DNA from: an uncultured Candidatus Saccharibacteria bacterium
Lineage (GTDB): Bacteria; Patescibacteriota; Minisyncoccia; Ryanbacterales; 2-02-FULL-48-12
DNA length: 64,000 nucleotides
Direction of reading: 5' to 3'
Assembly: GCA_964479945.1 (NCBI GenBank)
Contig: CAYZNS010000004.1
Span: 13,715 to 77,714 of the forward strand
The notes under the pieces: model-generated
Database searches by the model: none
The model's input: only the letters and a program-made list of their open reading frames with translations
Told to the model about the DNA's origin: nothing
Program-made: the position numbers and the translations under genes
Part shown: piece by piece, positions 5,470-53,777 of the stretch
Numbering within the stretch: position 1 is the first letter of the stretch
Layout: every line of letters begins with the position of its first letter

Positions 5470-7371
5470 ATGTCAAAGATACTAGGAATTGACCTCGGTA
5501 CCACCAACTCCGCCATGGCGGTGATGCAGGCGGGGCAGCCGAAAATAATAGAAAACAAAGAAGGGAACCGCACCACGCCGTCCATGGTAGCGGTCTCTAA
5601 AACGGCCGAGCGCCTGGCCGGTTTGCTTGCCAAGCGTCAGGCAATTACGAATCCTAAAAACACCATTTATTCCGCGAAGCGTCTGATCGGGCGCACGTTC
5701 ACGGACGCGCAGCTGGATAAGGACAAAGAAACCCTGCCATATGACATCCGCGCGTCGGCAAGCGGCGGCGTTGAGATTCGCATGGCGGATAAATGGTATA
5801 GGCCGGAGGAGATCTCTGCTATGGTTCTCCAGAAACTCAAGCATGATGCCGAAGAATACTTGGGCGAGAAAATAACGGAAGCGATTATAACCGTTCCTGC
5901 GTATTTTGACGACGATCAGCGGCAGGCAACCAAAAATGCGGGTGAGATAGCGGGCCTTACCGTGCGCCGAATTATCAACGAGCCCACGGCGGCCGCGCTT
6001 GCGTACGGGTTTGATAAAAAGAAGAACGAAAAGATAGTAGTGTATGATTTCGGCGGCGGCACGTTTGACGTATCAGTGCTGGAAATCGGCGACAATACCA
6101 TTGAGGTGCGCGCCACAGGCGGAGATACGCATTTGGGAGGGGATGATTTTGATCAGAAAATTATTGATCACCTTGTCGTGGAATTCAAGAAGGAATCCGG
6201 CATAGATATCTCAAAGGACGGCCTTGCCCTTCAGCGTCTTAAAGAAGCGGCGGAGAAAGCAAAACATGAATTATCTACTACGGTAGAGACGGAAATAAAT
6301 ATTCCCTTTATAACTTCCGGCGCGGACGGGCCGCAGCATCTCCTAATCAAGCTCGCGCGCGCCAAGTTGGAATCCCTGGTGAGTGAATATGTCTTACGCT
6401 CCGTGGAAATAACCAGGCAGGTAGTGCGCGATGCAAAATTTGAACTACACGCGATAGACGAAGTCATTTTGGTGGGCGGACAAACGCGCATGCCAGCCAT
6501 TGTAAATGCGGTGAAGGAACTGTTCGGCAAAGAGCCGAACAAGTCCATCAACCCGGATGAAGTGGTGGCGGTTGGAGCAGCTATTCAGGGCGGCATTATG
6601 CAGGGAGACGTAAAGGATGTTCTCCTTCTGGATGTAACACCGCTTTCGTTTGGCATTGAAACATTAGGGGGGGTATTTACGCGCCTTATAGAAAAAAATA
6701 CCACCATTCCCACGGCCAAAAGCCAGATATTTTCCACCGCCGCGGACAATCAAACGTCCGTGGAAGTGCACGTGCTGCAAGGGGAGCGGGAATTCGCGCG
6801 GGACAACAAAAGCTTGGGCCGGTTTATATTGGACGGTATCCCGCCTGCCCCCCGCGGCATGCCGCAAGTGGAGGTTACGTTTGACATTGATGCGAACGGC
6901 ATCCTCAATGTGAAAGCAAAAGACAAAGCGTCCGGCAAAGAACAATCCATTCGTATTGAAGCGTCTACCGGACTCTCCAAGGAAGAGATAGAGCGCATGA
7001 AGCAGGATGCGGCCGCGCATGCCGAGGAAGACAAGAAACGCAAAGAGACTGTGGAAATGAAAAATACGGCAGACGCGCTTATCTACACGGCGGAGAAGTC
7101 TCTCCGCGACGCGGGCGACAAAGCGCCGGAAGATATCCGCAAAGACGTGGAGACGAAAATAGAGGATCTCAAAAAAGCGAAGGAAGGGGATGACGCGCAG
7201 CAGATTCAAAACGTGTCCAGCGCGCTGCAAGCATCGCTTTCAAAGATAGGCGAGTATCTCTACAAGCAGCAGCCGCAAGAGAACAAAGGCACGCAATCAA
7301 CTGATGATAAGAAAGACAATGTGAAAGATGCGGAGTTCAAGGATGTAGAAGATAAGAATAAAGAATCATGA
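5470..7371 (+). CDS. dnaK: molecular chaperone DnaK (Hsp70)
   Basis: [18 protein letters not shown], full Hsp70 architecture, 633 aa. Confidence 0.95.
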
Positions 7372-7569
7372 ATCATGAATCATGAATTATGAAATATGGA
7401 AAACGTAAAACTCTAAACTCTAAGTCCTAAACAAGTCTCAAGTTCAAAGTGCAAAGTTCAAAAAGAGGTTTTTATGCTTTATGTTTTTATCTTCGAGTTT
7501 GTTTAGAGTTTAGGGTTTGGAACTTAGAATTTTTGTCCTTGATTCATAATTCTTACTTCATAATTCAAA
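7372..7569. repeat. heptamer-based imperfect palindromic spacer (catgaat / aactcta motifs and their reverse complements)
   Basis: tandem atcatga x3 at left edge mirrored by ttcataa repeats at right edge; nested inverted repeats seen directly. Confidence 0.6.
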
Positions 7570-8544
7570 ATGCTTTATACTGAAAGCATTATGACGAATG
7601 TTAAATCTTTCATTGTCGGCATAATCATAGTTGCGTCTTCTGTCCCTTTTTGGTTTTTCTATCGCGAGGCAATCGGCCTCAATGCAGGTAACGGCCTTGC
7701 CGTGTCTTACGCGCTGATATTGCTGACAATTAATCTTGCCGCAACGGCGCTTTTGCTTCTGTTCGCGGAACGCGCGCGCATACTTATTGTGGTGGCCGTG
7801 CTGAACGCGTTTTCGTTTCTTTATTTTTTTGGCGCTTCCGTAATTACGGGCATAGGTGCGTTTTTTCTTTTGGCGGCCGTGTGGTACGCGTACGAGCGGG
7901 TGCATGCGGAGATTGAAAGCCGTATTACATTTAACGTGTCCATTCTGTTGCGGCAGGGCATGCCTTCCGTTCTTACGGCGCTTGCCATAGCGCTTGCATT
8001 GGGATATTTTGTGCAAACCGCGAAAACGCCCGAGCGCATTACCATACGCGATATTATTCCCCGCGCGGTGTTTGAGGCCGTATTTGAGAATACCGTTCCC
8101 TATATTGGCACTGCGGCGCTTGAGGGTTTTAGCGCCAATCTCACGGTTGACGAATACATAGAGCGGCAGCTTACAAAAGGCGGGCTGGATATAACACAGC
8201 TCCCCGCCGGCGAGCGGGAACAAGTTTTTGCCCGCGCCCGGGAAGAGCTGTTTCGGCAGGTTTCCGACACGCTGCCGGAAACTTCCATTCAGGGTGATAC
8301 GCGCATCGGCGACGTATTGTATGACATTATTATTGCGCGAAGCGAGCAGGTACTCGCACCCTATCAGCAGTTTATCCCTTTTGCGTTTGCATTCGGACTC
8401 TTTTTATTTCTTCGTACGGTTGCGCTGCCATATGGGTGGGCAATTTCATGGATTATCCGCGGCGCCATAGCGCTGCTTCGGCGCGGAGGAGTGGTGGTGC
8501 GAACGGAGGAACAGGCTGTGAAAGAACGCATGTCTTGGGCATGA
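7570..8544 (+). CDS. hypothetical polytopic membrane protein
   Basis: 324-aa ORF with multiple hydrophobic helices; no recognisable family. Confidence 0.45.
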   Translation: MLYTESIMTNVKSFIVGIIIVASSVPFWFFYREAIGLNAGNGLAVSYALILLTINLAATALLLLFAERARILIVVAVLNAFSFLYFFGASVITGIGAFFLLAAVWYAYERVHAEIESRITFNVSILLRQGMPSVLTALAIALALGYFVQTAKTPERITIRDIIPRAVFEAVFENTVPYIGTAALEGFSANLTVDEYIERQLTKGGLDITQLPAGEREQVFARAREELFRQVSDTLPETSIQGDTRIGDVLYDIIIARSEQVLAPYQQFIPFAFAFGLFLFLRTVALPYGWAISWIIRGAIALLRRGGVVVRTEEQAVKERMSWA

Positions 8545-12741: not shown

Positions 12742-12993
12742 ATGTCTTCCCAAAAACAAACAATAGAACAATCCCTTAAACGCCTCGAAAAGATCGTGGA
12801 AGAACTTAACGCACGCGACGTGGATGTTGAGGAAGGGCTTGCCAAATTCAAAGAAGGCGTGGAATTAATAAAGGCGTGCCGCAGCCAGCTGGGTCAGGCG
12901 GAAAATGAGTTTAAGAAATTACAAAAGGAGTTAGATGCTGATGATAAAAGTACTTTTTTTGAAGGAGGAGAAAATAATAGTGATGAATTATGA
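12742..12993 (+). CDS. xseB: exodeoxyribonuclease VII small subunit
   Basis: SLKRLEKIVEELNARDVDVEEGLAKFKEGVELIKACRSQL; ATG at 12742 (the track ORF begins at an upstream GTG). Confidence 0.75.
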   Translation: MSSQKQTIEQSLKRLEKIVEELNARDVDVEEGLAKFKEGVELIKACRSQLGQAENEFKKLQKELDADDKSTFFEGGENNSDEL

Positions 12994-13106
12994 AGCATGA
13001 ATTATGAATTACGGAGAAAAAAGAATTGCGAGTTTTATAATACTTTTCCATAATTCCATATTCATGATTCATGTAAATAGATGAGTAATCGTATTGATAG
13101 AAAATA

Positions 13107-20446: not shown

Positions 20447-20738
20447 CACAATTTACCATGAATCAAGAATTATGAATTATGGGATTTGAAAGTAATAAGA
20501 GCCTATCTCAAAAATAATGAGGAGCTGAAATCCTTAAAATTCGTTGCGAAAATTGCAAAAAATGAGGAGGCATAGCGAGCTATGGCGACGAGTTTTTTGC
20601 AATTTGCAGCCGAATTTTAAAGATTTCAGCCCTCAAGTGCCATAATTTGTTATATTTGCACGGTTATTTTTGAGATAGGCTCAAGTTAATGCTTCTTTTT
20701 TCCTTAATTCATAATTCAAGATTCATAATTCATATTTC
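20447..20738. repeat. 292-nt nested near-perfect palindrome forming the rpoB-rpoC spacer
   Basis: outer catgaatcaagaattatgaatt / aattcataattcaagattcataattcat; perfect 19-bp GAGCCTATCTCAAAAATAA/TTATTTTTGAGATAGGCTC; further nested arms. Confidence 0.7.
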
Positions 20739-23700
20739 ATGAACACTTTAGAAAAAGACAACATAATAGTAGATCAGAATTTTGACGCAATTGCCTTGCG
20801 GCTGGCTTCGCCCGCGCGCATGTTGGAGTGGTCGCATGGGGAAGTCTTGAAACCGGAAACCATCAACTACCGCACCCAGCGGCCGGAGCGCGACGGTTTG
20901 TTTTGCGAGCGCATATTCGGGCCAGAGAAGGATTACGAGTGTTACTGCGGAAAATACCGCCGCATCCGTTTTAAAGGCATCATCTGCGACAAATGCGGCG
21001 TTGAAGTTACGCGCGCGGTGGTGCGAAGAGAACGCATGGGGCATATTGCGCTGGCGTCTCCCGTTTCGCACATTTGGTTCTTACGCGGCGTGCCTTCCAA
21101 AATGAGCTTGCTCTTGGGCGTCTCCGTCAGCGATCTGGAGAAAGTAATTTATTTCGCGGGCTATATTGTACAGCATGTGGACGAGGATCGGCGCCGGGAG
21201 GTTTTGTCAGAGATTGAGCGCGAGTATAAATTGAAATTGAAAGCGGGCGTGCGGGACAAAGACACGCTGAAAGAGGCGGCTGACCAGGCAAAGTCGGAAG
21301 TAAAAAGCATCACGCGCATGCAGGTGCTCTCGGAAGTGGAATATCACCACATCAGCATGAAATACGCCAATCTCTTCCGCGCGGGCATAGGTGCCGAAGC
21401 GTTGTACGATATTTGCACGGGTGTTGATTTTACCGTGTTGGAATCAAGCTTGAATGAAGAAGCGGAGCGCTCTTCAAATCCGGTGCAGAAGCGAAAAATA
21501 TTAAAACGCTTGCAGCTTGTCCGGGCCATGCAGACTACCGGCATACGTCCCGAATGGATGTTTCTTACCATTATTCCAGTTATTCCGCCGGCGCTGCGGC
21601 CCATGGTTCCCCTTGATGGCGGGCGGCACGCAACCAGCGATGTCAACGATTTATACCGGAGAGTAATCAACCGGAACAACCGCTTGAAACGCCTCTATGA
21701 ACTCAAAGCGCCTGAAGTAATATGCCGCAATGAAAAGCGCATGCTGCAGGAAGCGGTGGACGCGTTGATAGACAACTCTATCCGGCGGGGACAGGCAGTG
21801 GTAACGTCGCAGGCGCAAAAGCGCCCGCTGCGTTCTCTCGCCGACATGCTCAAAGGCAAGCAAGGGCGGTTCCGGCAAAATTTGCTGGGCAAGCGCGTGG
21901 ATTACTCCGGGCGTTCCGTTATTGTGGTAGGGCCTGACTTGAAACTGCATCAGTGCGGCTTGCCGAAGCATATGGCATTAGAGTTGTTTCGTCCATTCGT
22001 AATCCGAAAAATCATTGAGCGCGGGCTTGCGTTTAACATCCGCGGCGCCGGACGCCTTATTGAAGACGCGACCCCCGACGTATGGGCGATTTTGGAAGAG
22101 GTGGTGGATGGCAAATACGTGCTCTTAAATCGCGCGCCCACGCTGCATCGCTTGGGAATCCAGGCATTCCAGCCGAAACTTATTGAAGGCCGCGCTATAC
22201 AGCTGCATCCGCTCTCGTGCGAAGCGTTTAATGCCGATTTCGACGGCGACCAGATGGCGGTGCACGTGCCGCTTACGAAAGAAGCGCAGTATGAGGCGCG
22301 TGAAATTATGGCGGCGGAAAAAAATTTGCTCAAACCCGGCACGGGCGATGCCATCGCGCGGCCGCAGCAAGATATCGTGCTTGGCTGCTACTGGCTGACG
22401 CAAGTAAAGGATGGCGCGCAAGGGGAGGGCAAAATATTTTCCGACCGCCAAGAAGCGTTGATGGCGCTGGAACACGGCGCGGTGAGTCTGCAGGCGAAGA
22501 TTAAAGTGCGGTTAACCGAGAATGAATTGGAGCTTACGGAAACAACCCCCGGTCGCATTATTTTCAATAACGCCCTGCCGGATGGATTTGAGTTTGTTAA
22601 TAACGGGCTCAATAAAAAATTTCTCACGGCGCTTACGAGTAAAATCGTACGCCAGTACGGCGCGGAGGGATCGGCCCCCATTCTGGACAGCATAAAAGAT
22701 ATTGGTTTCGAGTATGCCACGCGTTCGGGTATAAGCTGGGGCATCAGCGATCTGCCGGAGTTGACCCGCAAGAAAGAGATTATTGATCAAGCGCTCGCGG
22801 ATGCGCAAGTGGTTCGCGATCAGTTTGAGCGCGGACTGCTTACGGACACAGAGCGCTATGCCAAGGTGGTGGAAATTTGGAATACGAAAGTAAAGCCTCA
22901 AATAGACAAAGAGGTGCGGGAATCTTTGGATAAGGCAGGCCCTATTTTCTCCATGATCGATTCCGCCGCGCGCGGCTCTTGGGTACAGGTAAACCAAATG
23001 GCGGGCATGAAAGGCATGGTCGTCAATCCATCCGGCCGGATTATTGAGCTTCCCATTGTTTCCAGTTATAAAGAAGGCCTCAATGTGCTTGAATATTTCA
23101 TATCTACGCACGGCGCGCGTAAAGGCACGGCGGATACGGCATTAAAAACCGCGGCGGCCGGCTATTTGACGCGGCGTTTGGTTGATGTGGCCCAGGATGT
23201 GGTGGTAACGGAGGAAGATTGCAATGATGATAACGGCCTCATTGCGTACCGGAAGGATGTGGAAGAGGTAAATAAAAGTTTCGCTTCGCGCATATTCGGG
23301 CGCACGCTGCTGGCCGATGCGCGGCATCCGGAAACAAAGAAGGCGCTTGCGCGCGCCGGCGAAATAATTACCATTGACATGGCGGAACTTATTGATAAGT
23401 CCGGGCTTTCTACGGTGCATCTGCGCTCTCCCGTAACGTGCAAGACGCGCCGCGGCGTGTGCCAGGCATGTTATGGCTATGATTTGGGGACAAATTCGCA
23501 AGTGCGTATCGGCGAGGCGGTTGGCATTGTAGCGGCCCAGGCGATCGGCGAGCCCGGCACCCAGCTTACCATGCGCACATTCCATATCGGCGGCGTGGCG
23601 GGCGGCGGCGATATCACGCTTGGCTTGCCCCGCGTGGAAGAAATATTTGAAATACGCACGCCGAAGACGAAGGCGATTATTTCCGAGGTAAACGGAAAGG

Positions 23701-24410
23701 TGTTGGAGATTAAGGATGAAAACCGCGACCGCATCGTACGCGTTCTTCCCGATGACGACGACGGCACAAAGCGCGATGTGCAGGAATATACGATTCCGTT
23801 CGGCAAGGGTGTGGTGGTAAGCGAACATGATGTGATAACAAAAGGCCAGCCGGTCTCTGACGGCATTGTGGATACGAAAGATCTCTTTAAGGTGGCCGGC
23901 ATAGCCGAAGCGCAGAATTATATTATTCGGGAAATCGGCAAAGTATACGCGCTGCAGGGCTCTCCTATTAACGAAAAGCATATTGAAGTCATTGTGCGCC
24001 AGATGTTTTCGCGCATACGGGTGAAGACCGCGGGTTCCACGCGTTTCAGCGAAGACGAAATAGTGGAGCGCGACCGCTTTCTGGAAGAAAATGACCGCGC
24101 GCTTGCCGCGAACGGCGATCCCGCAAAAGGCGTGCGGCTTTTGATAGGCATTTCCAAGACGGCGCTTTCGGTTTCCAGCTTCCTCTCGGCCGCAAGCTTC
24201 CAGGAGACCACGCGTGTTCTTATTAATGCGGCCATAGAAGGGCAGGTTGATCATCTGCGGGGCCTTAAGGAAAACGTAATAATCGGGCGCCTGATACCGG
24301 CTGGCACGGGATACCGCAAAGACATTCCAAAAACGATCGGACCGACCTACACCGAAGACGAAGAAGCGGAGGTGGAGATAGAAGAGATGGCAATGGAAGA
24401 ACAGGTGTAA
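20739..24410 (+). CDS. rpoC: DNA-directed RNA polymerase subunit beta'
   Basis: NADFDGD catalytic motif, Zn-binding CxxC N-terminus, 1223 aa. Confidence 0.95.
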
Positions 24411-24469
24411 GCAGTTGTAAGTAGTAAGTTGTAAGTTCTAAATAAAAAAACTGATAAATAAACAGTAAA

Positions 24470-24540
24470 AACCCCCTTCTCTGACCCCACCGTAATCCTC
24501 CCCTTATGAAGGGAAGGAAAGAGGAGGGGTTTTTTGTTTT
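24470..24540 (+). terminator. two-tier GC hairpin plus T-run (rpoC terminator)
   Basis: CCCCTTCTCT…AGAGGAGGGG stem then GGTTTTTTGTTTT. Confidence 0.55.
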
Positions 24541-24674
24541 GAATAATGGGACTGTTGCCGAATGGCACTTTTAGCGATTTTTGCCCGAAAATATCCTTAT
24601 TTTTCAACAGGCAAATTTAAAAAAACGGCATTCGGCAACAGTCCCATAATACAAGAGCTCATAAACATTTGCGA

Positions 24675-24708
24675 ATTACGAAACTCCACCAACGTTGTCA
24701 TTGCGAGG
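24675..24708 (+). repeat. 34-nt dispersed motif ATTACGAAACTC(C/T)(ACC/GTC)AACGTTGTCATTGCGAGG, copy 1
   Basis: second copy at 53575-53608 with 4 mismatches. Confidence 0.6.
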
Positions 24709-24857
24709 GCTATCCGCGCCTAGGCGGATCCGCCTTGGGCGGAAAATTCGTACGTTTTTATTCCCAATTTATCCAAATGAAAACCGCCCGACCAATGCCA
24801 GACGGTTTAATGGCAAGAACTCGCAAATCAGAGCAAGTGCCAGGATTGTGATCAGTT

Positions 24858-25034
24858 AGAAAGTGTTTACAAACCCTTCGTAGCGAAGCTTTCCTGCTTT
24901 GAGCTGATACAAGGAAGGCAAGTAAAACGGCATAAGGCGTAGCAACGCTACGGTGAAATGCTGTTTTACGCAGCCTGACGCCGTAGCAGCCAAAGCAGGA
25001 AAGCTGCAGTAGAAGGGGTTTGTAAACACTTTCT
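24858..25034. repeat. 177-nt rod-like hairpin element with 5' GCCAGGATTGTGA box
   Basis: perfect 19-bp outer stem AGAAAGTGTTTACAAACCC/GGGTTTGTAAACACTTTCT, 14-bp second stem, internal GCTACGG/CCGTAGC stem. Confidence 0.6.
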
Positions 25035-25076
25035 TAGTGACTTACAACTTACAACTTTTTTTGCTATACTATACTC

Positions 25077-27335
25077 ATGTTTTGGAGCAGGAAAAAGGCA
25101 AAAAAGAAGCGGCGGGAGCAACGGCGGGAAATTGAGGAAGAAGAGGAGGAGCGTGCGCCCTGGCATGCTGATTTGCATACGGAGACGAAGCGGTCGGTAT
25201 GGGCGGTTCTTTCGTTTTGCATGGCGCTTATATTTCTTCTGGCATGGTTTGGAAAAGCGGGGCTTGCGGGGGAGCGCATCTCGTCGTTTTTCACGCTCTT
25301 GTTCGGCAACGCTTTTCTCGTAGTGCCGATTATGTTTCTTCTTGCAGGCATATCTTTTTTGTTTGGCATGCGCCAACGCGTGATGGGGGGTACCTTTTTC
25401 GGAGCGCTTCTGTTTTTAGTAAGCGTGCTGGGATTAGGCGAGATTATCGGCGGCCCGGAGACAAGCGGCTATGTGGGGCTTGGCATTGCGTTGGCGCCCC
25501 TGAAATTTTTTGACGTTGCCGCAAGCAGTATAATATTCGGTACCATTCTTTTAATATCGCTTCTCCTCATGTTTAACAAAGCGCTGGTGCCGCGGCGGAT
25601 AGAGAAGGAAGAACCGCAGAAAGAGATGCCGGTAAACGAAATGAATACCACAGATGAGGAGCATGCTGCCACAGAGAAGAGAGGACTCTTCGCGCGCATG
25701 GTACGTTTTTTGTTTGGCAAACGGCAGTTTCAAGCAGATATGCCCGCCGCGCTGGAACCTGTTGCAACGAGTGAAGAGATGGCGCCGGCATCTGCGGCAA
25801 TAGAACCGGCGCTGCAGGAGATGCCGGCCCCGTTGGATGATGGGGTGCTGCCGATAAAAGATGATAAGCCGGTTGCCTATCGGCGCGTTCCCTCAAGCTA
25901 TAAGCCGCCGCCGCTGAATCTGTTGGAAGAGGATCGCGGCAAGCCATCATCGGGCGATGTGCGTGCGAATGCGAATATCATCCAGCGCACGCTTCAGAAC
26001 TTTGACATTGACGTGGACATGGGAGAGGTGAATATAGGTCCCTCGGTAACACAATATACCTTAAAGCCCGCCGAAGGCATAAAACTTGAGCGCATTACAA
26101 ATCTTGCCAGCAACCTTGGCATGGCGTTGGCAGCTCATCCGTTACGCATTGAAGCGCCTATTCCCGGCAGATCGCTCGTGGGTGTTGAAGTACCGAATAA
26201 ATCTATCTCATTTGTGGGACTGCGAAGGCTGATGGCAGAATTTACCGCGAAAAAACGTGAAATGGTACTCGGATTCGCGTTGGGACGGGATGTTACGGGC
26301 ACCGCCGTGTTTACAGATATTGCGCGTATGCCGCATCTGCTCATCGCCGGCAGCACGGGATCTGGTAAATCTGTTACCATTCATTCTTTACTCTTAAGTC
26401 TTTTATTTTCTAATCCGCCGGAGATGCTGCGGTTTATTATGATAGATCCAAAGCGCGTGGAGATGGTGTATTACAGCGATATTCCGCATTTGCTCACGCC
26501 CGTGGTAACGGAAGCCAAGAAAGCGATTGTCGCGCTTCGGTGGGCAGTCAGGGAAATGGAACAGCGGTACAAAATGCTCCAGGATGCGCGTGCCCGCGAT
26601 ATTGTTTCTTACAACAGCGATGCCGCCAATGCTGATATATTGCCGCATGTTGTGATAATAGTAGACGAGCTTGCGGAGTTGATGGCAATCTATCCGCGGG
26701 AAGTGGAAGCAAACATCACGCGGTTGAGTTCAATGGCGCGCGCGGTAGGAATTCACCTTGTGGTTTCCACGCAGCGGCCATCGGTGAATGTTATAACCGG
26801 CCTTATCAAAGCGAATATCACCACGCGCATTGCGCTTCAAGTGGCGTCCCAGATAGATTCGCGGACCATTCTGGGCGCCGCGGGCGCCGAGAAGCTTTTG
26901 GGGAAAGGGGATATGTTGTATCAACAGGGCGATGGCGCCAAACCGCGGCGCATCCAAGGCGTGTTTGTATCGGAATCGGAAGTAAAGCGTGTTACGCAAT
27001 ATTTGCAGCAATTGGCAGGAGATGTGTATCCGGCTGCCGTAGATGATCAGGACGTTATTTTCGGCGGGCAGAGCTCGGAGGAAATTAAACTTGAAGGTGA
27101 AGAAGCAGACGATGAAAAATATGAAGAAGCGCGAGAGCTTGTAATTGCCGCGGGGAAGGCGTCTATTTCCATGCTTCAACGGCGGCTTGGACTAGGGTAT
27201 GCGCGGGCCGGGAAACTTATTGATATGCTTGAAGACCGCGGCGTGGTTGGGCCGGGCGATGGAGCTAAGCCGCGGGATGTGCTGGTAAGCCGTGAGGCGG
27301 AGAACGTGCTTGAGCGGGATTTGCATGAAGCGTAG
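25077..27335 (+). CDS. ftsK: DNA translocase FtsK/SpoIIIE
   Basis: N-terminal TM region, Walker A GSTGSGKS, C-terminal gamma winged-helix domain. Confidence 0.9.
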   Translation: MFWSRKKAKKKRREQRREIEEEEEERAPWHADLHTETKRSVWAVLSFCMALIFLLAWFGKAGLAGERISSFFTLLFGNAFLVVPIMFLLAGISFLFGMRQRVMGGTFFGALLFLVSVLGLGEIIGGPETSGYVGLGIALAPLKFFDVAASSIIFGTILLISLLLMFNKALVPRRIEKEEPQKEMPVNEMNTTDEEHAATEKRGLFARMVRFLFGKRQFQADMPAALEPVATSEEMAPASAAIEPALQEMPAPLDDGVLPIKDDKPVAYRRVPSSYKPPPLNLLEEDRGKPSSGDVRANANIIQRTLQNFDIDVDMGEVNIGPSVTQYTLKPAEGIKLERITNLASNLGMALAAHPLRIEAPIPGRSLVGVEVPNKSISFVGLRRLMAEFTAKKREMVLGFALGRDVTGTAVFTDIARMPHLLIAGSTGSGKSVTIHSLLLSLLFSNPPEMLRFIMIDPKRVEMVYYSDIPHLLTPVVTEAKKAIVALRWAVREMEQRYKMLQDARARDIVSYNSDAANADILPHVVIIVDELAELMAIYPREVEANITRLSSMARAVGIHLVVSTQRPSVNVITGLIKANITTRIALQVASQIDSRTILGAAGAEKLLGKGDMLYQQGDGAKPRRIQGVFVSESEVKRVTQYLQQLAGDVYPAAVDDQDVIFGGQSSEEIKLEGEEADDEKYEEARELVIAAGKASISMLQRRLGLGYARAGKLIDMLEDRGVVGPGDGAKPRDVLVSREAENVLERDLHEA

Positions 27336-27733: not shown

Positions 27734-27855
27734 CTTTGAATAACGAAAACCGCAGGGAATGTGACTAACCGAGCTCTGCACACAAGCGAAGCGAAGTGTG
27801 AATAGCTCGGTTTGGCACATTCCAGATGTCAAATAATGCGTTTCGTTATTCAAAG
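27734..27855. repeat. long palindromic element, copy A of the GTGACTARCCGAGCT family
   Basis: outer inverted repeat CTTTGAATAACGAAA/TTTCGTTATTCAAAG; core boxes GTGACTAACCGAGCTC and AGCTCGGTTTGGCAC; inner hairpin CACAC…GTGTG. Confidence 0.75.
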
Positions 27856-27871
27856 TAAATAAGCAATACGT

Positions 27872-29124: not shown

Positions 29125-29217
29125 CTCGTAACTCGTAATCCGTAACTCGTAATCCGTACCAGGAAGATTAATAAGATAAAATTCCTTTGTACGAGTTACG
29201 GTTTACGGATTACGAAT
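29125..29217. repeat. hairpin of CTCGTAA/TTACGAG heptamer repeats between rpsR and ssb
   Basis: ctcgtaactcgtaatccgtaactcgtaatccgta … tacgagttacggtttacggattacga inverted arms. Confidence 0.7.
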
Positions 29218-29767: not shown

Positions 29768-30217
29768 TTAATTTCCTAATATTTCATCCAACTTTTTATC
29801 CAACTCTTTTTCATCAACTTTTTCCGCTTGCTTTTCGGGCGTGTCCGCCGGAGGCACGCTGCCTGCAGCTGTTTTTAGTCCCGGCGCGCGTCCGCGCCGT
29901 ACTATCGGCTGGGCAGTTGTGCGCTCCCACGACAGCACTAAATGCCTTACAATGGTATCGTGCGTTTTTACTTCCCGTTCAATGCCGCCAATTGCGGGGG
30001 GTGCGATGGAAAATTGCAGCGCGGCGAAATAGGCCTGCTCTATTTTACGAATGGGATAAGAAAGCTTGCGGATTTTCGGATCCGTGGTTCTCTCGAGCAT
30101 ACCGTTGTATTTTTCAATAATGGACCGAACATTGCCAAGTTCCGCCGCAGCTTCCTCTTCCGATAGCTCCGATTTTATAAGCAGGCCTATTTCATATAAC
30201 TGCGGCTCTTGTGCCAT
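29768..30217 (-). CDS. rpsF: 30S ribosomal protein S6 with acidic/Lys-rich C-terminal extension
   Basis: YEIGLLIKSELSEEE… S6 fold; rpsF-ssb-rpsR order. Confidence 0.75.
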   Translation of the reverse strand: MAQEPQLYEIGLLIKSELSEEEAAAELGNVRSIIEKYNGMLERTTDPKIRKLSYPIRKIEQAYFAALQFSIAPPAIGGIEREVKTHDTIVRHLVLSWERTTAQPIVRRGRAPGLKTAAGSVPPADTPEKQAEKVDEKELDKKLDEILGN

Positions 30218-30223
30218 AAGGGC

Positions 30224-30252
30224 ATTGTACTATAAGGGATCTCTTATAGCAA
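30224..30252 (-). promoter_or_regulatory. candidate rpsF promoter (TTGCTA-17-TACAAT) with embedded 20-bp perfect palindrome
   Basis: minus-strand hexamers; CTATAAGGGATCTCTTATAG fills the spacer; -10 lies ~7 nt from the ATG. Confidence 0.4.
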
Positions 30253-30338
30253 GCAGGTATTTGCCTCGCAGGGCTTGACAAATATTTTATAACATGCTAT
30301 TCTGTCGGCAGAATTAAGAACAAGTGTCTCACCAAAGG

Positions 30339-30482
30339 GGTAAGAGTTCACAAACTCGAGTAAGCGCCAGGATTGTGACTAGCCGAGCTTTACACACACG
30401 CCAAGGCGGTGTGGATAGCTCGGCTTGGCACATCCGGAAATGGAGAAAAGCAATTATTGCTCGAGTTTGTGAGCTGTTACCC
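30339..30482. repeat. long palindromic element, copy B (GCCAGGATTGTGACTAGCCGAGCTT … AGCTCGGCTTGGCACATCC)
   Basis: outer inverted repeat GGTAAGAGTTCACAAACTCGAG/CTCGAGTTTGTGAGCTGTTACC; inner hairpin CACACACGCC…GGCGGTGTGG. Confidence 0.75.
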
Positions 30483-30491
30483 AAAGAGAAC

Positions 30492-30520
30492 TTGACAAGA
30501 ATAGTATAACATGCTATAAT
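30492..30520 (+). promoter_or_regulatory. consensus promoter TTGACA-17-TATAAT
   Basis: perfect hexamers with 17-nt spacer; ~300-nt leader to the next ORF. Confidence 0.55.
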
Positions 30521-30824
30521 ATATCCATAAAAAGAGGATGTACTTCCTAACCGCTTTTCTTTTGTGGAAAGAATGATGGAGGAGAGAGGGCAAATAGGAT
30601 CGGCACTAAATATACATAAGAGGCCGTTACTCCTTACAATCGCCTTCATCGTTCTCTCTATGAAATGAGAGGAGAGATTGGAATAGTTCTTTGTTGAAAT
30701 AACATAAGCGTTCAAACGTGGAACGTAAAGCGTAAAGCGTTAAAACGAATAGCCGGAGAAGTTCTTTGAATTAAATAGTGCTGTTGCTCATATAGATTTC
30801 TGGCCGCTTTTGAGGAGATAGAAA

Positions 30825-31256
30825 ATGTCTTTTCAAACGCGGCTGGAAACTATATTAACCAGCCCGTCAGCTTACCGAGCTACAGAAGCTGAAACGCCAG
30901 AGGAGGCACCAATGGCACGAATAGATTGCACGAAGACAAATTGCGAAACTTTTCGGCAGTTGATTGAAAAACTCAATACCGAAGGGTTCGATATAGATCA
31001 CTTTCATGCGGTTGACCTTATTGAGGTCGATGCTGACTATAGTGGAGGAGAAAAGGTGGTCTATGTCCTCGAGGGCGATATCTTGAAAAAAGGGATAGAG
31101 ATGGTCGTTCATCTCAATTTCGTCTTCGATAAAAACGGCGTCGTAGAAGATGCCGCATGGTCTTCGGGAAATGAGTTGGACGAGAGGATTCACCCTCTCG
31201 ATCAAGATCCGAGAGGCTGGTTCAAGCTTGTTGCCGACGAGTGGCACGAACGATAG
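30825..31256 (+). CDS. hypothetical acidic protein (143 aa)
   Basis: SD GAGGAG; no recognisable family; C3-rich codon usage unlike core genes. Confidence 0.45.
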   Translation: MSFQTRLETILTSPSAYRATEAETPEEAPMARIDCTKTNCETFRQLIEKLNTEGFDIDHFHAVDLIEVDADYSGGEKVVYVLEGDILKKGIEMVVHLNFVFDKNGVVEDAAWSSGNELDERIHPLDQDPRGWFKLVADEWHER

Positions 31257-32328: not shown

Positions 32329-32449
32329 CCCAGCACTAAATTTTTGGTTTAAATAGTGTGTGACTAACCGAGCTCTATCCCGGTGCAACCGCGGATGGAC
32401 AGCTCGGTTTGGCACTATACAAATATCGAACCAAAAATTTAGTGCTGGG
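32329..32449. repeat. long palindromic element, copy C
   Basis: outer inverted repeat CCCAGCACTAAATTTTTGGTT/AACCAAAAATTTAGTGCTGGG; core GTGACTAACCGAGCTC…AGCTCGGTTTGGCAC. Confidence 0.75.
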
Positions 32450-46026: not shown

Positions 46027-46037
46027 GCAAAGCAGAC

Positions 46038-46722
46038 GCCAGGATTGTGACTAGCCGGGCTTCGCACACGCCCTGCAAGGGCGCTGTGAGTAGCCAGGCT
46101 TGGCACACTCCCCCACCAAAATTTTTGGTGGGGGAGCACATCCGGAAAAAGGTGGACAAAAAATTAAAAGTATGCTAAAAACTATGCAGACAGCAAACTG
46201 CATAGTTTTTTTGAAAGGGGGATTTGAAATGTCTGATCAGGAAAAAATACATGTTGCGTTATGCAATATTGGCAACATACATCTCACTAGAAAGATGGGC
46301 GAAATTATAGTATTTTGCTCCTTTAATAACCATATCAATTTCTATTTTAATGAGTCGGGAGTGCTTGAGGAGATTGAACTTTATAATTCACCTTCGTATC
46401 ATAGAAATATCCTCCAAGCCAGACATGAGTGGACAGGAACGCTTATCGGCGTCCGGTTGGAAGGAGATGAGTTATATCTCTATCCAAATAACGCTGGACT
46501 CGTGAAAGTGAATCTGAGAACTGGTTTCTTATACACAAAGTAACATTGATTGGGAGAGGGTGATATTCTCTCCTTTTTTATTGACATTTTTGATGTGTGC
46601 GTATATCATATTGATATTAATCTATATGTAATTTATTTTTGAAGTTTCTGTATCAATGCATTCTGGATGTGCTCCCCAACCAAAATTTTTGGTGGGGGAG
46701 TGTACCAAGCCGGGCTACTCGC
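46038..46722. mobile_element. palindromic element copy D split by a ~520-nt insertion with 58-nt terminal inverted repeats and a cargo ORF
   Basis: left TIR 46086-46143 and right TIR 46665-46722 each contain the 29-nt palindrome CTCCCCCACCAAAATTTTTGGTGGGGGAG; interior has its own terminator, SD, low-GC ORF, second terminator and a TTGACA-17-TATCAT promoter. Confidence 0.5.
46229..46543 (+). CDS. hypothetical protein (104 aa), cargo of the inserted element
   Basis: SD AAGGGGGA; AT-rich codon usage; no family recognised; the track ORF begins at an upstream ATG (46100) inside the repeat. Confidence 0.45.
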   Translation: MSDQEKIHVALCNIGNIHLTRKMGEIIVFCSFNNHINFYFNESGVLEEIELYNSPSYHRNILQARHEWTGTLIGVRLEGDELYLYPNNAGLVKVNLRTGFLYTK

Positions 46723-46749
46723 ATCGCCATTTAAATTAGCCACATCACT

Positions 46750-47031: not shown

Positions 47032-47067
47032 CAAGTTAAAAGTTAAAAGTGCAAAATGCAAAGTTAT

Positions 47068-47090
47068 GGTATCCCGCTTTCAGCGGGATG
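47068..47090 (+). terminator. GC hairpin terminator (GGTATCCCGC-tttcag-GCGGGATG) inside an A/T heptamer palindrome
   Basis: stem-loop flanked by gttaaaagtgcaaaatgcaaag / ttttgcactttgcactttg inverted arms. Confidence 0.5.
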
Positions 47091-47165
47091 ATTATATAAA
47101 TCCGTGAGCGAAGCGAACACCAAAATTTTGCACTTTGCACTTTGAATTTTGAACTAATATAGCAT

Positions 47166-48649: not shown

Positions 48650-48687
48650 AAAATGCAAAATGTAAAAATCAAAATGTAAAATTTTTG

Positions 48688-48709
48688 TATTCCGGCGAAG
48701 CCGGAATCA
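48688..48709 (+). terminator. GC hairpin terminator (TTCCGGC-gaa-GCCGGAA) inside an aaatg/cattt heptamer palindrome
   Basis: seen directly; between ferredoxin and SOD genes. Confidence 0.5.
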
Positions 48710-48778
48710 TTTTAGCATTTTACATTGTCATTTTGCATTTTGATTTTTACATTTTAAATTATAAACTAACAAGAAAAT

Positions 48779-50624: not shown

Positions 50625-50660
50625 AAAATTAAAAGTTAAAAATTAAAAGTGCAAAGTGTT

Positions 50661-50684
50661 GGTATTCCGGCTGCGCCGGAATGA
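50661..50684 (+). terminator. GC hairpin terminator (TTCCGGC-tgc-GCCGGAA)
   Basis: same family as 48688 with compensatory loop change. Confidence 0.5.
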
Positions 50685-50806
50685 ATGTACTGTGAATTAC
50701 GAAATGCATTATTTGACATCTGGAATGTGTCATTTCGTAATTCACAGAATGTATATAATCCGTGAGCGAAGCGAACACCAAAATTTTGAATTTTGCACTT
50801 TAAATT

Positions 50807-53500: not shown

Positions 53501-53574
53501 ACTTGTTGTGAATAGTTACCCAACTTCCTCTTGAGAAGTCGGGCCTTTTGTGATATAGTAGATGTATACTATGA

Positions 53575-53608
53575 ATTACGAAACTCTGTCAACGTTGTCA
53601 TTGCGAGG
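53575..53608 (+). repeat. 34-nt dispersed motif, copy 2, followed by GAGCGAAGCGA box and CTCGCAATGAC inverted partner
   Basis: seen directly. Confidence 0.6.
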
Positions 53609-53693
53609 AGCGAAGCGACGTAGCAATCTCATAATTTTCAATACGCTCGCAATGACAATATTCTGATGTTTCATAAATCAAAAAATTATATGT

Positions 53694-53777
53694 GGGTCGG
53701 TGGCGGAGCGGTCAATCGCACTAGACTGTAAATCTAGCGCCTATATGGCTACGCAGGTTCGAATCCTGCCCGGCCCA
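53694..53777 (+). tRNA. tRNA-Tyr (anticodon GTA), class II long variable arm
   Basis: GGGTCGG…CTAGA-CTGTAAA-TCTAG-CGCCTATATGGCTAC-GCAGG-TTCGAAT-CCTGC-CCGGCCC-A. Confidence 0.8.

What the first reader, a model, noticed from the sequence alone, without database searches (positions are those of the whole stretch)
24411..25076. 666-nt gene-free, highly structured region between rpoC and ftsK
The region contains a two-tier terminator (24470-24540), a 23-bp-stem hairpin AATAATGGGACTGTTGCCGAATG…CATTCGGCAACAGTCCCATAATA (24543-24650), the 34-nt dispersed motif (24675-24708), a CCGCGCCTAGGCGG-ATCC-GCCTTGGGCGG palindrome, and a 177-nt rod-like hairpin (24858-25034) beginning with the GCCAGGATTGTGA box. 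The whole region is bracketed by GTAAGTTGTAAGT (24420-24440) and ACTTACAACTTAC (25040-25060) heptamer arrays. No ORF of 60 aa or more lies on the sense strand. It is a candidate for one or more structured non-coding RNAs. A 6S-like rod was considered and not confirmed. Alternatively it is a cluster of selfish palindromic elements.
Basis: seen in the sequence. Interest (0 to 1): 0.55.

Follow-up and report, generated by a model that had tools for sequence, protein, structure and literature searches.

The report
Nest of small mobile hairpin elements
The long, heavily folded gap between rpoC and ftsK in this Parcubacteria genome is an ordinary terminator-plus-promoter spacer swollen by several small, non-coding, multi-copy mobile DNA elements, and it is not a conserved RNA gene.

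Summary
The described features are all present. The spacer folds far better than shuffled sequence on both strands (z about -13). Most of that signal comes from two palindromes.

- **H3 (24859-25033, 175 nt)** is a MITE. It has perfect 18-nt terminal inverted repeats and a direct TTA duplication on each side. At least nine other copies (91-100% identical) lie next to unrelated genes in groundwater metagenome contigs, each with its own TAA or TTA duplication.
- **H2 (24543-24650)** has a 99% identical copy in another context.
- **A 74-nt module (24673-24746)** is also dispersed.
- **24812-24851** is a fragment of a REP-like hairpin family.

Relatives keep the rpoB-rpoC-ftsK-recA order, but their spacers are only 235-275 nt. 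Only the last 35 nt align, and those hold the ftsK promoter.

The native parts are the rpoC terminator and an extended -10 promoter seven bases before the ftsK ATG, which implies a leaderless mRNA. The heptamer bracket is a genome-wide habit of this lineage and is not special to this locus.

Rfam finds nothing. I found no evidence for a conserved ncRNA. This is a new member of a known kind and of modest interest.

The parts
24413..24441 (.). Left heptamer array (AGTTGTA-type, about 4 units). It sits directly after the rpoC stop codon and is followed by an A-run.
   Evidence: TRF. It is complementary to 25040-25057 at 17/18 positions. Such arrays are genome-wide.
24466..24540 (+). Intrinsic terminator of rpoC. 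The outer stem CCCCCUUCUCU/AGAGGAGGGG encloses a second hairpin and is followed by UUUUUUGUUUU.
   Evidence: Fold (-28 kcal/mol, z = -2). The simple scanner missed it because the loop is longer than 8 nt. The relative L003 has a different terminator at the same place.
24543..24650 (.). H2, a 108-nt palindromic dispersed element (MITE-like). It has 19-bp perfect terminal arms TGGGACTGTTGCCGAATG.. and TAA on both sides (24544-24546 and 24647-24649).
   Evidence: z = -9.1 on + and -8.4 on -. A 99% identical copy lies in the opposite orientation at L111 5049-5156 with unrelated flanks. Contig L118 breaks inside it.
24673..24746 (+). 74-nt dispersed module (GAATTACGAAACTCC...GGGCGGAAAA) that contains the CCGCGCCTAGGCGGATCCGCCTTGGGCGG palindrome. 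It has no terminal inverted repeats.
   Evidence: 89% identical copies occur in L107, L113 and L115 with different flanks. Its first 36 nt recur at window 53573-53608, just after a TATACT box and upstream of a tRNA. Its folding is not unusual (z = -1.2).
24812..24851 (+). Fragment homologous to the 5' outer strand of a REP-like hairpin element, including the GCCAGGATTGTGA box. The conserved hairpin core that follows the box in complete copies is missing here.
   Evidence: 78% identical to window 30339-30378. The box is exact at 30366 and 46038. Complete family members are described.
24856..24858 (.). Left copy of the TTA target-site duplication of H3.
   Evidence: Alignment A2.
24859..25033 (+). 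H3, a 175-nt MITE with terminal inverted repeats GAAAGTGTTTACAAACCC. It folds into a rod of -98.9 kcal/mol.
   Evidence: Ten metagenome contigs carry copies at 91-100% identity with unrelated flanks. Contigs assembled with k = 141 break exactly 140 nt in from each border.
25034..25036 (.). Right copy of the TTA target-site duplication of H3.
   Evidence: Alignment A2.
25040..25057 (.). Right heptamer array (ACTTACA, 2.6 units), followed by T7. It overlaps the -35 region of the ftsK promoter.
   Evidence: TRF. It is conserved in relative L003 as ACTTACCACTTAAAAC + T7.
25041..25076 (+). ftsK promoter: -35 CTTACA, 18-nt spacer, extended -10 TGcTATACT (25062-25070). The ATG at 25077 lies 7 nt after the -10 and there is no Shine-Dalgarno sequence, which implies a leaderless mRNA.
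   Evidence: Scan. Conserved at 33/35 positions in L003. L004 and L006 show the same -10-to-ATG geometry. The same pattern occurs across the window's genes.

Best explanation
The rpoC-ftsK spacer of this Parcubacteria genome began as an ordinary spacer of about 250 nt. That spacer held a heptamer array, the rpoC intrinsic terminator, a second complementary heptamer array and the ftsK promoter, which abuts the ATG.

In this lineage about 400 nt of non-coding dispersed repeats were added:
- H3, a 175-nt MITE inserted at a TTA four bases upstream of the ftsK -35.
- H2, a 108-nt palindromic MITE-like element just after the terminator.
- A 74-nt dispersed module.
- A broken piece of a REP-like hairpin element.

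H3 moves by cut-and-paste or copy-in transposition, catalysed in trans by a DDE transposase. That transposase recognises the GAAAGTGTTTACAAACCC ends and duplicates a T(A/T)A target. This behaviour fits some IS5-family elements such as IS1237.

The strong predicted folding is a by-product of the palindromic build of these elements. It is not the signature of an RNA gene.

**Shown:** multi-copy dispersal, terminal inverted repeats, target duplication, absence from the syntenic spacer of relatives, and sequence exchange between copies.

**Inferred:** the transposase family, the order of insertions, and that the elements have no host function here.
For: **Synteny and spacer size**
- The order rpoB-rpoC-ftsK-small protein-recA is kept in relatives L003, L004 and L006.
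- Their spacers are 259, 235 and 275 nt, against 666 nt here.
- Only 25039-25073 aligns with L003.
- The four repeats sum to about 400 nt, which matches the excess.

**H3 dispersal**
- A 19-mer from its arm hits 18 metagenome stretches.
- Ten of them align to H3 at 91-100% identity while their flanks do not match the window.
- The neighbouring genes are unrelated: peptidyl-tRNA hydrolase, a P-type ATPase, GroEL, a DEAD helicase, an HhH-GPD glycosylase and a T4SS pilin.

**H3 target-site duplication**
- In alignment A2 the trinucleotide on the two sides is a direct repeat in 5 of 6 flank sets: window TTA/TTA, L100 TAA/TAA, L103 TTA/TTA, L113 (identical to L115) TAA/TAA, L114 TAA/TAA.
- L107 has TAA/TGA. 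It shares its left flank with L113 and L115, so these six sets are not fully independent loci.
- None shows the TTA/TAA arrangement expected if these bases belonged to the inverted repeat.
- In L100, H3 sits inside a copy of another palindromic element at a TTA that is single in the window's copy (20534-20536). The window copy therefore acts as a diverged empty site.

**Element borders**
- Contigs L117 and L001 were assembled with k = 141. L117 ends at 24995 and L001 starts at 24896.
- These positions are exactly 140 nt in from 24855/24856 and 25036/25037. That is where a de Bruijn graph branches at a repeat border.

**Exchange between copies**
- L117 and L001 differ from the window at 5 positions, all within 24923-24962. 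There are no differences in about 11 kb of flanks.
- Two of the five variants are shared with another copy, L101.

**Other elements**
- H2 has a 99% identical copy in L111.
- The 74-nt module has 89% identical copies.

**Transposase lead**
- IS1237 (IS5 family) makes TTA/TAA 3-bp duplications, and its inverted repeats start GAGGTGGTTTCA (PMC2516522).
Against: - No autonomous IS with matching ends was found in any sequence held, so the mobilising enzyme is unknown.
- No true empty-site allele of this exact locus was recovered.
- H2 has only one other copy in hand, and its flanking triplets are TAA/TAA here but TAA/TGA there. Its duplication is therefore unproven.
- The 74-nt module has no inverted ends and may be something other than a transposon.
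- Changes that keep pairing through G-U on the strand shown outnumber breaking changes among H3 copies (11 cells against 3, about 7 events against 3). One compensatory pair is seen (24940/24950). The + strand folds 8 kcal/mol better than the - strand. Selection on a single-stranded form is therefore not excluded.
Confidence: 0.82

Rival explanations
1. The region encodes one or more bona fide structured small RNAs. Candidates are a 6S-like rod (H3), or an sRNA of about 90 nt that starts near 24673 and ends at the U-rich run after 24756.
For: - Folding is extreme.
- H3 folds 8 kcal/mol better on the + strand and shows a wobble-tolerant substitution pattern plus one compensatory pair.
- The 36-nt start of the 74-nt module recurs at 53573, right after a TATACT box.
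- 24677-24756 can close a stem that is followed by GUUUUUAUU.
Against: - No Rfam family matches, even at E <= 10, beyond hairpin noise.
- Both strands fold almost equally well.
- The hairpins are absent from the syntenic spacer of relatives.
- H3 is multi-copy with target duplications, and its orientation is mixed: about 4 copies co-oriented and 3 anti-oriented with neighbouring genes.
- No sense-strand promoter is predicted other than ftsK's.
- The 74-nt stretch folds no better than shuffles (z = -1.2).
- The H3 rod has no large central bubble.
Confidence: 0.08
2. The elements are mobile in origin but have been co-opted here. The hairpins after the terminator would act as back-up terminators or 3' stabilisers for rpoBC mRNA. 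H3, sitting 4 nt upstream of the -35, would modulate or insulate the ftsK promoter.
For: - Position: H2 starts 6 nt after the terminator U-run, and H3 ends 4 nt before the -35.
- Relative L003 also has unrelated long hairpins at the equivalent two positions, which suggests that a hairpin there is tolerated or favoured.
- From general knowledge (not tested here): REP/BIME and Correia elements are known to act as terminators, RNA stabilisers and RNase III sites.
Against: - There are no expression data.
- The same elements sit in many unrelated contexts and in both orientations.
- Relatives L004 and L006 manage with short spacers.
Confidence: 0.2
3. The two complementary heptamer arrays pair across the whole spacer, in read-through RNA or as a DNA cruciform. 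The 600-nt insert would then be the loop of a giant stem that ends in a U-run and acts as an insulator, terminator or RNase III processing site. On this view the bracket, not the hairpins, is the functional unit.
For: - The arrays are 17/18 complementary, and the right arm is followed by T7.
- The ends of 11 of 35 spacers in the window are significantly complementary, most of them built from locus-specific heptamers.
- 29 of 36 period-7 arrays lie in the 15% of the window that is non-coding.
- L003 keeps both arrays.
Against: - Across 13 array pairs between co-directional genes, G-T and A-C mismatches on the sense strand are equal (19 against 20). There is therefore no sign of selection for RNA pairing.
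- The right arm lies downstream of a good terminator and overlaps the -35, so it would rarely be transcribed.
- A 600-nt loop is a poor terminator.
- More distant relatives lack the arrays.
Confidence: 0.12

Closest known systems
Bacterial MITEs (for example Correia elements of Neisseria, RUP of Streptococcus pneumoniae, ERIC/IRU of enterobacteria)
   Same: - Short (about 100-200 nt) and non-coding.
- Terminal inverted repeats and a short target-site duplication.
- Many dispersed intergenic copies that fold into long hairpins.
- They nest within one another and cluster at gene ends.
- They break short-read assemblies.
   Different: - There is no sequence similarity to any of these families.
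- The duplication is T(A/T)A, not the TA of Correia and RUP (that detail is from memory).
- The host is a small-genome Parcubacteria (candidate phyla radiation) bacterium.
- No cognate transposase has been identified.
IS5-family insertion sequences of the IS427/IS1031 type, such as IS1237 of Leifsonia xyli (PMC2516522)
   Same: They make a 3-bp TTA/TAA direct repeat. Their inverted repeats begin GAGGTGGTTTCA, compared with GAAAGTGTTTACA in H3.
   Different: H3 carries no transposase gene. The similarity of the ends is short and could be chance. No such IS was seen in the window or in any fetched locus.
REP / BIME elements (repetitive extragenic palindromes mobilised by RAYT transposases)
   Same: The GTGACTARCCGAGCT...AGCTCGGYTYGGCAC family, which supplies the GCCAGGATTGTGA box, is a palindrome of about 60-75 nt. 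It is multi-copy and intergenic, often occurs as inverted pairs, and shows compensatory changes in 9 of 19 stem pairs.
   Different: - Only a 40-nt 5' fragment of this family lies in the finding.
- The units are longer and three-tiered.
- No RAYT gene was looked for.
- The sequence is unrelated to enterobacterial REP.
Intergenic heptamer direct repeats (TAACTGA repeats of marine Beggiatoaceae, PMC4679880; STRR heptamers of heterocystous cyanobacteria, the latter from memory)
   Same: Tandem arrays of 7-nt units confined to intergenic DNA, at high density across the genome.
   Different: Here the unit differs from spacer to spacer. The arrays come as complementary inverted pairs, one directly after a stop codon and the other directly before the next start codon.
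6S RNA
   Same: A rod-like hairpin of about 175 nt.
   Different: - No match to the Rfam 6S model.
- No large central bubble.
- Multi-copy with target duplications.
- Not conserved in position.

Membership tests
MITE (miniature inverted-repeat transposable element), tested for H3 | Short and without a transposase gene | tested here: met
   H3 is 175 nt. The only ORF within it (57 aa, - strand) has no Pfam match and no homologue in the protein database.
MITE, tested for H3 | Terminal inverted repeats | tested here: met
   GAAAGTGTTTACAAACCC is present perfectly at both ends, here and in the other full-length copies.
MITE, tested for H3 | Target-site duplication flanking each copy | tested here: met
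   A direct TTA..TTA or TAA..TAA is present in 5 of 6 flank sets, and one set has TAA..TGA. The six sets are not fully independent, because L107 shares its left flank with L113 and L115. A nested insertion in L100 sits at a TTA that is single in the window's copy of the host element.
MITE, tested for H3 | Multiple dispersed copies with unrelated flanks | tested here: met
   Ten metagenome contigs carry copies at 91-100% identity, and their flanking genes are unrelated.
MITE, tested for H3 | A cognate autonomous IS with matching ends | tested here: inconclusive
   None was found in the window or in 119 fetched loci. Whole genomes of this lineage could not be scanned.
MITE, tested for H2 | Inverted ends, dispersed copies and a target duplication | tested here: inconclusive
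   The inverted ends are present, and there is one 99% identical copy elsewhere. The flanking triplets are TAA/TAA here but TAA/TGA in L111, and only two copies are in hand.
IS5-family-derived element | 3-bp TWA duplication and IS5-type ends | tested here: inconclusive
   The duplication matches that of IS1237 (PMC2516522). The resemblance of the ends is short, and no transposase was found.
6S RNA | Match to the family covariance model | tested here: not met
   There is no RF00013 hit at the gathering threshold or at E <= 10.
6S RNA | Single-copy gene conserved in position, with a rod that has a large central bubble | tested here: not met
   H3 is multi-copy and absent from the relatives' spacers. 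Its fold has only small internal loops.
Intrinsic (rho-independent) terminator, tested for 24466-24540 | G+C-rich stem immediately followed by a U-run, downstream of a gene | tested here: met
   A 10-bp G/C-rich outer stem is followed by UUUUUUGUUUU, 56 nt after the rpoC stop codon. Actual termination cannot be tested with these tools.
REP/BIME-like hairpin family, tested for 24812-24851 | A complete palindromic unit | tested here: not met
   Only the 5' outer strand and the box are present. The GTGACTARCCGAGCT core and the 3' half are missing.
REP/BIME-like hairpin family | An associated RAYT (Y1) transposase | not tested
   No search was made.
Genome-wide intergenic heptamer repeats (TAACTGA or STRR type) | One conserved heptamer unit used throughout the genome | tested here: not met
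   The units differ by locus, for example AGTTGTA, GAATCAT, TTACGAG, ACTTTGC and AAAATGC.

The most novel reading that the evidence does not exclude
The heptamer bracket is the interesting part. In this Parcubacteria lineage, many spacers are closed by a pair of locus-specific, mutually complementary heptamer arrays. One array sits at the stop codon and the other at the next start codon. These pairs could form a previously undescribed punctuation system. They might act as processing or insulating stems that release downstream cistrons as leaderless mRNAs, in an organism where only about 5 of 52 genes have a Shine-Dalgarno motif. They might instead mark a DNA-level inverted-duplication process. 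On this reading, MITEs such as H3 and H2 accumulate in the loops because the loops are neutral landing pads.
Probability: 0.12. Interest if true: 0.65.

Novelty: new member of a known kind. Interest (0 to 1): 0.3.

Why it matters
The result removes a false lead. A spacer that folds at z = -13 and looks like an RNA gene is in fact a pile-up of mobile palindromes. A de novo ncRNA screen of candidate phyla radiation genomes would flag such regions repeatedly.

It also shows that a very small, streamlined Parcubacteria genome carries several active or recently active families of non-autonomous elements:
- H3.
- H2.
- A 185-nt palindrome inside the rpoB-rpoC spacer.
- A REP-like hairpin family.

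These elements exchange sequence between copies and break short-read assemblies at exactly their borders. That matters for the quality of metagenome-assembled genomes in this group. The full-text library I searched held no paper on MITEs in Patescibacteria.

Tried and rejected
- **Rfam, gathering threshold on the whole window and E <= 10 on the region.** Only tRNAs elsewhere and sub-threshold microRNA-type hits on the hairpins. Rejected as noise.
- **Rfam on the related gene-free region 30200-30900.** Nothing.
- **Protein search with the 57-aa ORF inside H3, hoping gene callers had annotated other copies.** No hit.
- **Viral-contig scan with the H2 arm.** A single chance match inside a phage coding region, with no hairpin.
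- **Search for a full-length IS with H3-type ends in all held sequence.** None found.
- **Test of whether the long form of the REP-like element at 30321-30491 is a syntenic ncRNA gene.** The similar long forms in L049 and L098 are not next to rpsF, ssb or recA. Orthology is unsupported and the question is left open.
- **Test for wobble bias in the heptamer stems.** 19 G-T against 20 A-C mismatches, so there is no support for RNA-level selection.
- **Diversity-generating retroelement as the source of the five clustered substitutions in H3.** I considered this and set it aside, because two of the five are present in another H3 copy (L101). That points to exchange between copies.

Full report
**Observation**

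The window position 24411-25076 is a 666-nt gap. It lies between an rpoC gene (20739-24410, all five Rpb1 domains) and an ftsK gene (25077-27335, FtsK alpha, motor and gamma domains).

- the two-tier terminator;
- the 108-nt hairpin, here called H2;
- the motif at 24673-24708;
- the CCGC/GCGG palindrome;
- the long rod, here called H3;
- the GCCAGGATTGTGA box;
- the two complementary heptamer arrays.

The whole spacer folds at -262 kcal/mol on the + strand and -268 kcal/mol on the - strand. Shuffled sequence gives about -165 and -175, so z is about -13 on both strands.

Folded piece by piece, the excess comes from H2 and H3:
- H2: z = -9.1 on the + strand and -8.4 on the - strand.
- H3: z = -13.7 on the + strand and -11.6 on the - strand.
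- Terminator: z = -2.0.
- 24673-24768 and 24769-24855: z about -1, which is ordinary.

One detail of the finding is wrong. A 60-aa TTG-start ORF does lie on the sense strand (24669-24851), although it has no Pfam match. The region is real: four independent public contigs reproduce it at 99.9-100% identity.

**Context**

The best FtsK matches are Parcubacteria, close to Candidatus Ryanbacteria. The nearest relative is 80% identical and the next ones about 65%.

The gene order rpoB-rpoC-ftsK-small protein-recA is kept in relatives L003, L004 and L006. Their rpoC-ftsK spacers are only 259, 235 and 275 nt. Against the 80% relative L003, only 25039-25073 aligns (33 of 35 bases). That stretch holds the right heptamer array, a T-run and the promoter.

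L003 has the same layout built from unrelated sequence: an array, a different terminator, two different hairpins, an array and the promoter. The hairpins of the finding are therefore not conserved at this locus.

**H3 is a MITE**

I scanned the JGI metagenome contigs with a 19-mer from the H3 arm and obtained 18 stretches. Ten of them align to H3 at 91-100% identity, and their flanks do not match the window.

The genes next to these copies are unrelated to one another. They include a methyltransferase with peptidyl-tRNA hydrolase, indoleamine dioxygenase with a P-type ATPase, a T4SS pilin, a DEAD helicase, GroEL and an HhH-GPD glycosylase.

Aligning the full-length copies fixes the element as GAAAGTGTTTACAAACCC...GGGGTTTGTAAACACTTTC, at window 24859-25033.

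The trinucleotide just outside each end is a direct repeat, not an inverted one:
- window: TTA / TTA
- L100: TAA / TAA
- L103: TTA / TTA
- L113 (identical to L115): TAA / TAA
- L114: TAA / TAA
- L107: TAA / TGA

L107 shares its left flank with L113 and L115, so these are not six fully independent loci. This pattern is what a 3-bp T(A/T)A target-site duplication looks like. A 4-bp TWAG duplication parses the same sequence equally well.

In L100, H3 sits inside a copy of a second palindromic element, at a TTA. The window's own copy of that element (20498-20682) has that TTA only once, at 20534-20536. The two BLAST segments flanking the insertion overlap on exactly that TTA.

The assemblies give independent support for the borders. 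Contigs L117 and L001 were assembled with k = 141. L117 ends at 24995 and L001 starts at 24896. These are 140 nt in from 24855/24856 and 25036/25037, which is where an assembly graph branches at the edge of a repeat. L118 breaks inside H2 and L002 breaks inside H3.

**Exchange between copies**

L117 and L001 come from another sample. They differ from the window at five positions, all within 24923-24962 at the apex of H3, and at no position in about 11 kb of flanking sequence. Two of the five are shared with a different H3 copy, L101. Gene conversion between copies is the simplest explanation.

Of the five changes:
- two form a compensatory pair (24940 T>C with 24950 A>G);
- one turns a G-U pair into G-C;
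- one lies in a loop;
- one breaks a pair.

Across seven copies, substitutions that keep pairing through G-U on the strand shown outnumber those that break it. The count is 11 cells against 3, or about 7 events against 3. The + strand also folds 8 kcal/mol better than the - strand.

This is a weak hint that a single-stranded form matters. It is not significant. The orientation of H3 relative to neighbouring genes is mixed, with about four copies co-oriented and three anti-oriented.

**The other pieces**

- **H2 (24543-24650).** It has a 99% identical copy in the opposite orientation at L111 5049-5156, with unrelated flanks. TAA flanks both ends here, while L111 has TAA and TGA. I call it MITE-like, with its duplication unproven.
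- **The 74-nt module (24673-24746).** L107, L113 and L115 carry 89% identical copies with different flanks. Its first 36 nt recur at 53573-53608, right after a TATACT box and upstream of a tRNA. It has no inverted ends, and its nature is open.
- **24812-24851.** This stretch is 78% identical to the 5' outer strand of the hairpin at 30339-30378. That hairpin belongs to a family with the core GTGACTARCCGAGCT-[variable hairpin]-AGCTCGGYTYGGCAC. The window has four complete copies. The Parcubacteria MAG Gr01-1014_29 has at least fourteen units in eleven loci, often as inverted pairs. Compensatory changes occur in 9 of 19 stem pairs. Only a broken 5' piece lies in the finding.

Together H2, the 74-nt module, this fragment and H3 with its duplication add about 400 nt. 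That is the size of the excess over the relatives' spacers.

**What is native**

The terminator (24466-24540) sits 56 nt after the rpoC stop codon.

The ftsK promoter is CTTACA, an 18-nt spacer, then TGcTATACT, with the ATG 7 nt after the -10 and no Shine-Dalgarno sequence. L003, L004 and L006 show the same -10-to-ATG geometry. ftsK is therefore very likely transcribed as a leaderless mRNA from a promoter at the extreme right end of the spacer.

It follows that the hairpins are not a 5' UTR. They lie beyond a good terminator, so they are unlikely to be much of a 3' UTR either.

**The heptamer bracket**

The window holds 36 period-7 arrays, and 29 of them lie in the 15% of the window that is non-coding. 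The ends of 11 of 35 spacers are significantly complementary. Most of these use a heptamer unit specific to that spacer.

The bracket here is one instance of that habit. It predates the insertions, because L003 has it too. More distant relatives lack the arrays.

Across 13 array pairs between co-directional genes, 315 of 395 positions are Watson-Crick. Among the mismatches, G-T and A-C are equal on the sense strand (19 against 20). I see no sign of selection for RNA pairing. I cannot explain the arrays.

**Tests of the ncRNA reading**

- Rfam gives nothing at gathering thresholds. At E <= 10 it gives only microRNA-precursor models, which any long hairpin attracts.
- No sense-strand promoter is predicted other than ftsK's.
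- The hairpins are not conserved in position.
- The rod is multi-copy with target duplications and has no large central bubble of the 6S kind.

**Mechanism**

H3 is a non-autonomous element. It is moved in trans by a transposase that binds its 18-nt ends and makes a staggered cut at T(A/T)A.

IS5-family elements such as IS1237 make exactly this TTA/TAA duplication, and their ends begin GAGGTGGTTTCA (PMC2516522). This is a lead only. No such transposase was found in the sequence I hold.

**Comparison with known systems and verdict**

The closest known things are bacterial MITEs (Correia, RUP, ERIC) and REP/BIME clusters. This case works like them. For H3 it meets four of the five defining features of a MITE, and the fifth (a cognate IS) could not be settled.

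It is a new member of a known kind in a host group where the full-text library I searched held no paper on such elements. Interest is modest. The heptamer-array architecture and the apparent dominance of leaderless starts are the parts most worth a further look.

Noticed in passing
window 1-64000; for example 1387-1443, 7363-7571, 12983-13073, 20458-20740, 29125-29214, 47033-47155, 48650-48760, 50625-50814: Tandem heptamer arrays occur genome-wide: 36 period-7 arrays, 29 of them in the 15% of the window that is non-coding. Typically one array sits right after a stop codon and its complement right before the next start codon. The unit differs from spacer to spacer. Mismatches show no wobble bias (19 G-T against 20 A-C). 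The arrays are present in the 80% relative L003 and in L100, and absent from L004 and L036. Their function is unexplained.
   Followed up: partly
window 20498-20682 (rpoB-rpoC spacer): A 185-nt palindromic element with ends AGAGCCTATCTCAAAAATAA sits inside the rpoB-rpoC spacer, which is 292 nt here. In relatives the two genes overlap or are 96 nt apart. A 97% identical copy lies at L111 2310-2494 in another context, and a diverged copy in L100 carries H3 nested at a TTA. This is a second MITE-like family, and it lies inside an operon that is normally co-transcribed.
   Followed up: partly
window 27751-27826, 30365-30440, 32357-32420, 46037-46110 (plus an inverted partial copy at 46661-46731): A REP-like hairpin family has the conserved core GTGACTARCCGAGCT-[variable hairpin]-AGCTCGGYTYGGCAC. 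All four complete copies in the window are on the + strand. At least 14 units occur in Parcubacteria MAG Gr01-1014_29 (VMFT01), often as inverted pairs. Compensatory changes occur in 9 of 19 stem pairs. The family is not in Rfam.
   Followed up: partly
window 30274-30520: A rod of about 170 nt (30321-30491, -92.5 kcal/mol, z = -9.7) contains one REP-like core. It is flanked by two nearly identical sigma-70 promoters (CTTGACAA..ATAACATGCTAT at 30274 and 30491). Similar long forms with covarying outer stems occur in L049 and L098, but not in synteny with rpsF, ssb or recA. It could be an ncRNA gene or a long subfamily of the repeat.
   Followed up: partly
window, starts of about 52 genes; for example 25077, 38447(-), 56316, 36183(-), 49419, 47166: Only 5 of 52 crude gene starts have a GGAG, GAGG or AGGA motif upstream. 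Many ATGs lie 0-8 nt after a TATAAT- or TATACT-like box, often with an extended TG. This suggests that leaderless mRNAs are the norm in this organism. No paper in the held library pairs the words 'leaderless' and 'Parcubacteria'.
   Followed up: partly
window 24923, 24934, 24940, 24950, 24962, compared with L117 and L001: Two otherwise identical haplotypes (0 differences in about 11 kb) differ at five positions, all within 40 nt at the apex of H3. Two of these variants are shared with another H3 copy (L101). One pair of changes is compensatory. This looks like gene conversion between dispersed copies.
   Followed up: yes
window 46077-46147 and 46661-46731: A 71-nt inverted repeat (89% complementary), partly made of the REP-like element, brackets a small ORF (about 46231-46543) downstream of a peroxiredoxin-like gene. 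It is possibly a composite mobile unit.
   Followed up: no
window 27813-27860 and 50685-50732: A 48-nt segment downstream of the REP-like copy in front of recA recurs, inverted and 90% identical, inside a hairpin at 50690-50747. This is another dispersed module.
   Followed up: no
window 53566-53660: The 36-nt motif shared with the finding starts 2 nt after a TATACT box. It runs into a hairpin (TTGTCATTGCGAG...CTCGCAATGACAA) about 35 nt upstream of the tRNA at 53694-53777. It is possibly a tRNA precursor leader.
   Followed up: partly
L111 4671-6073: A second gene-poor stretch of about 1.4 kb in another contig carries both H2 and a truncated H3 about 465 nt apart. This is a similar pile-up of the same elements at a different locus.
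   Followed up: no
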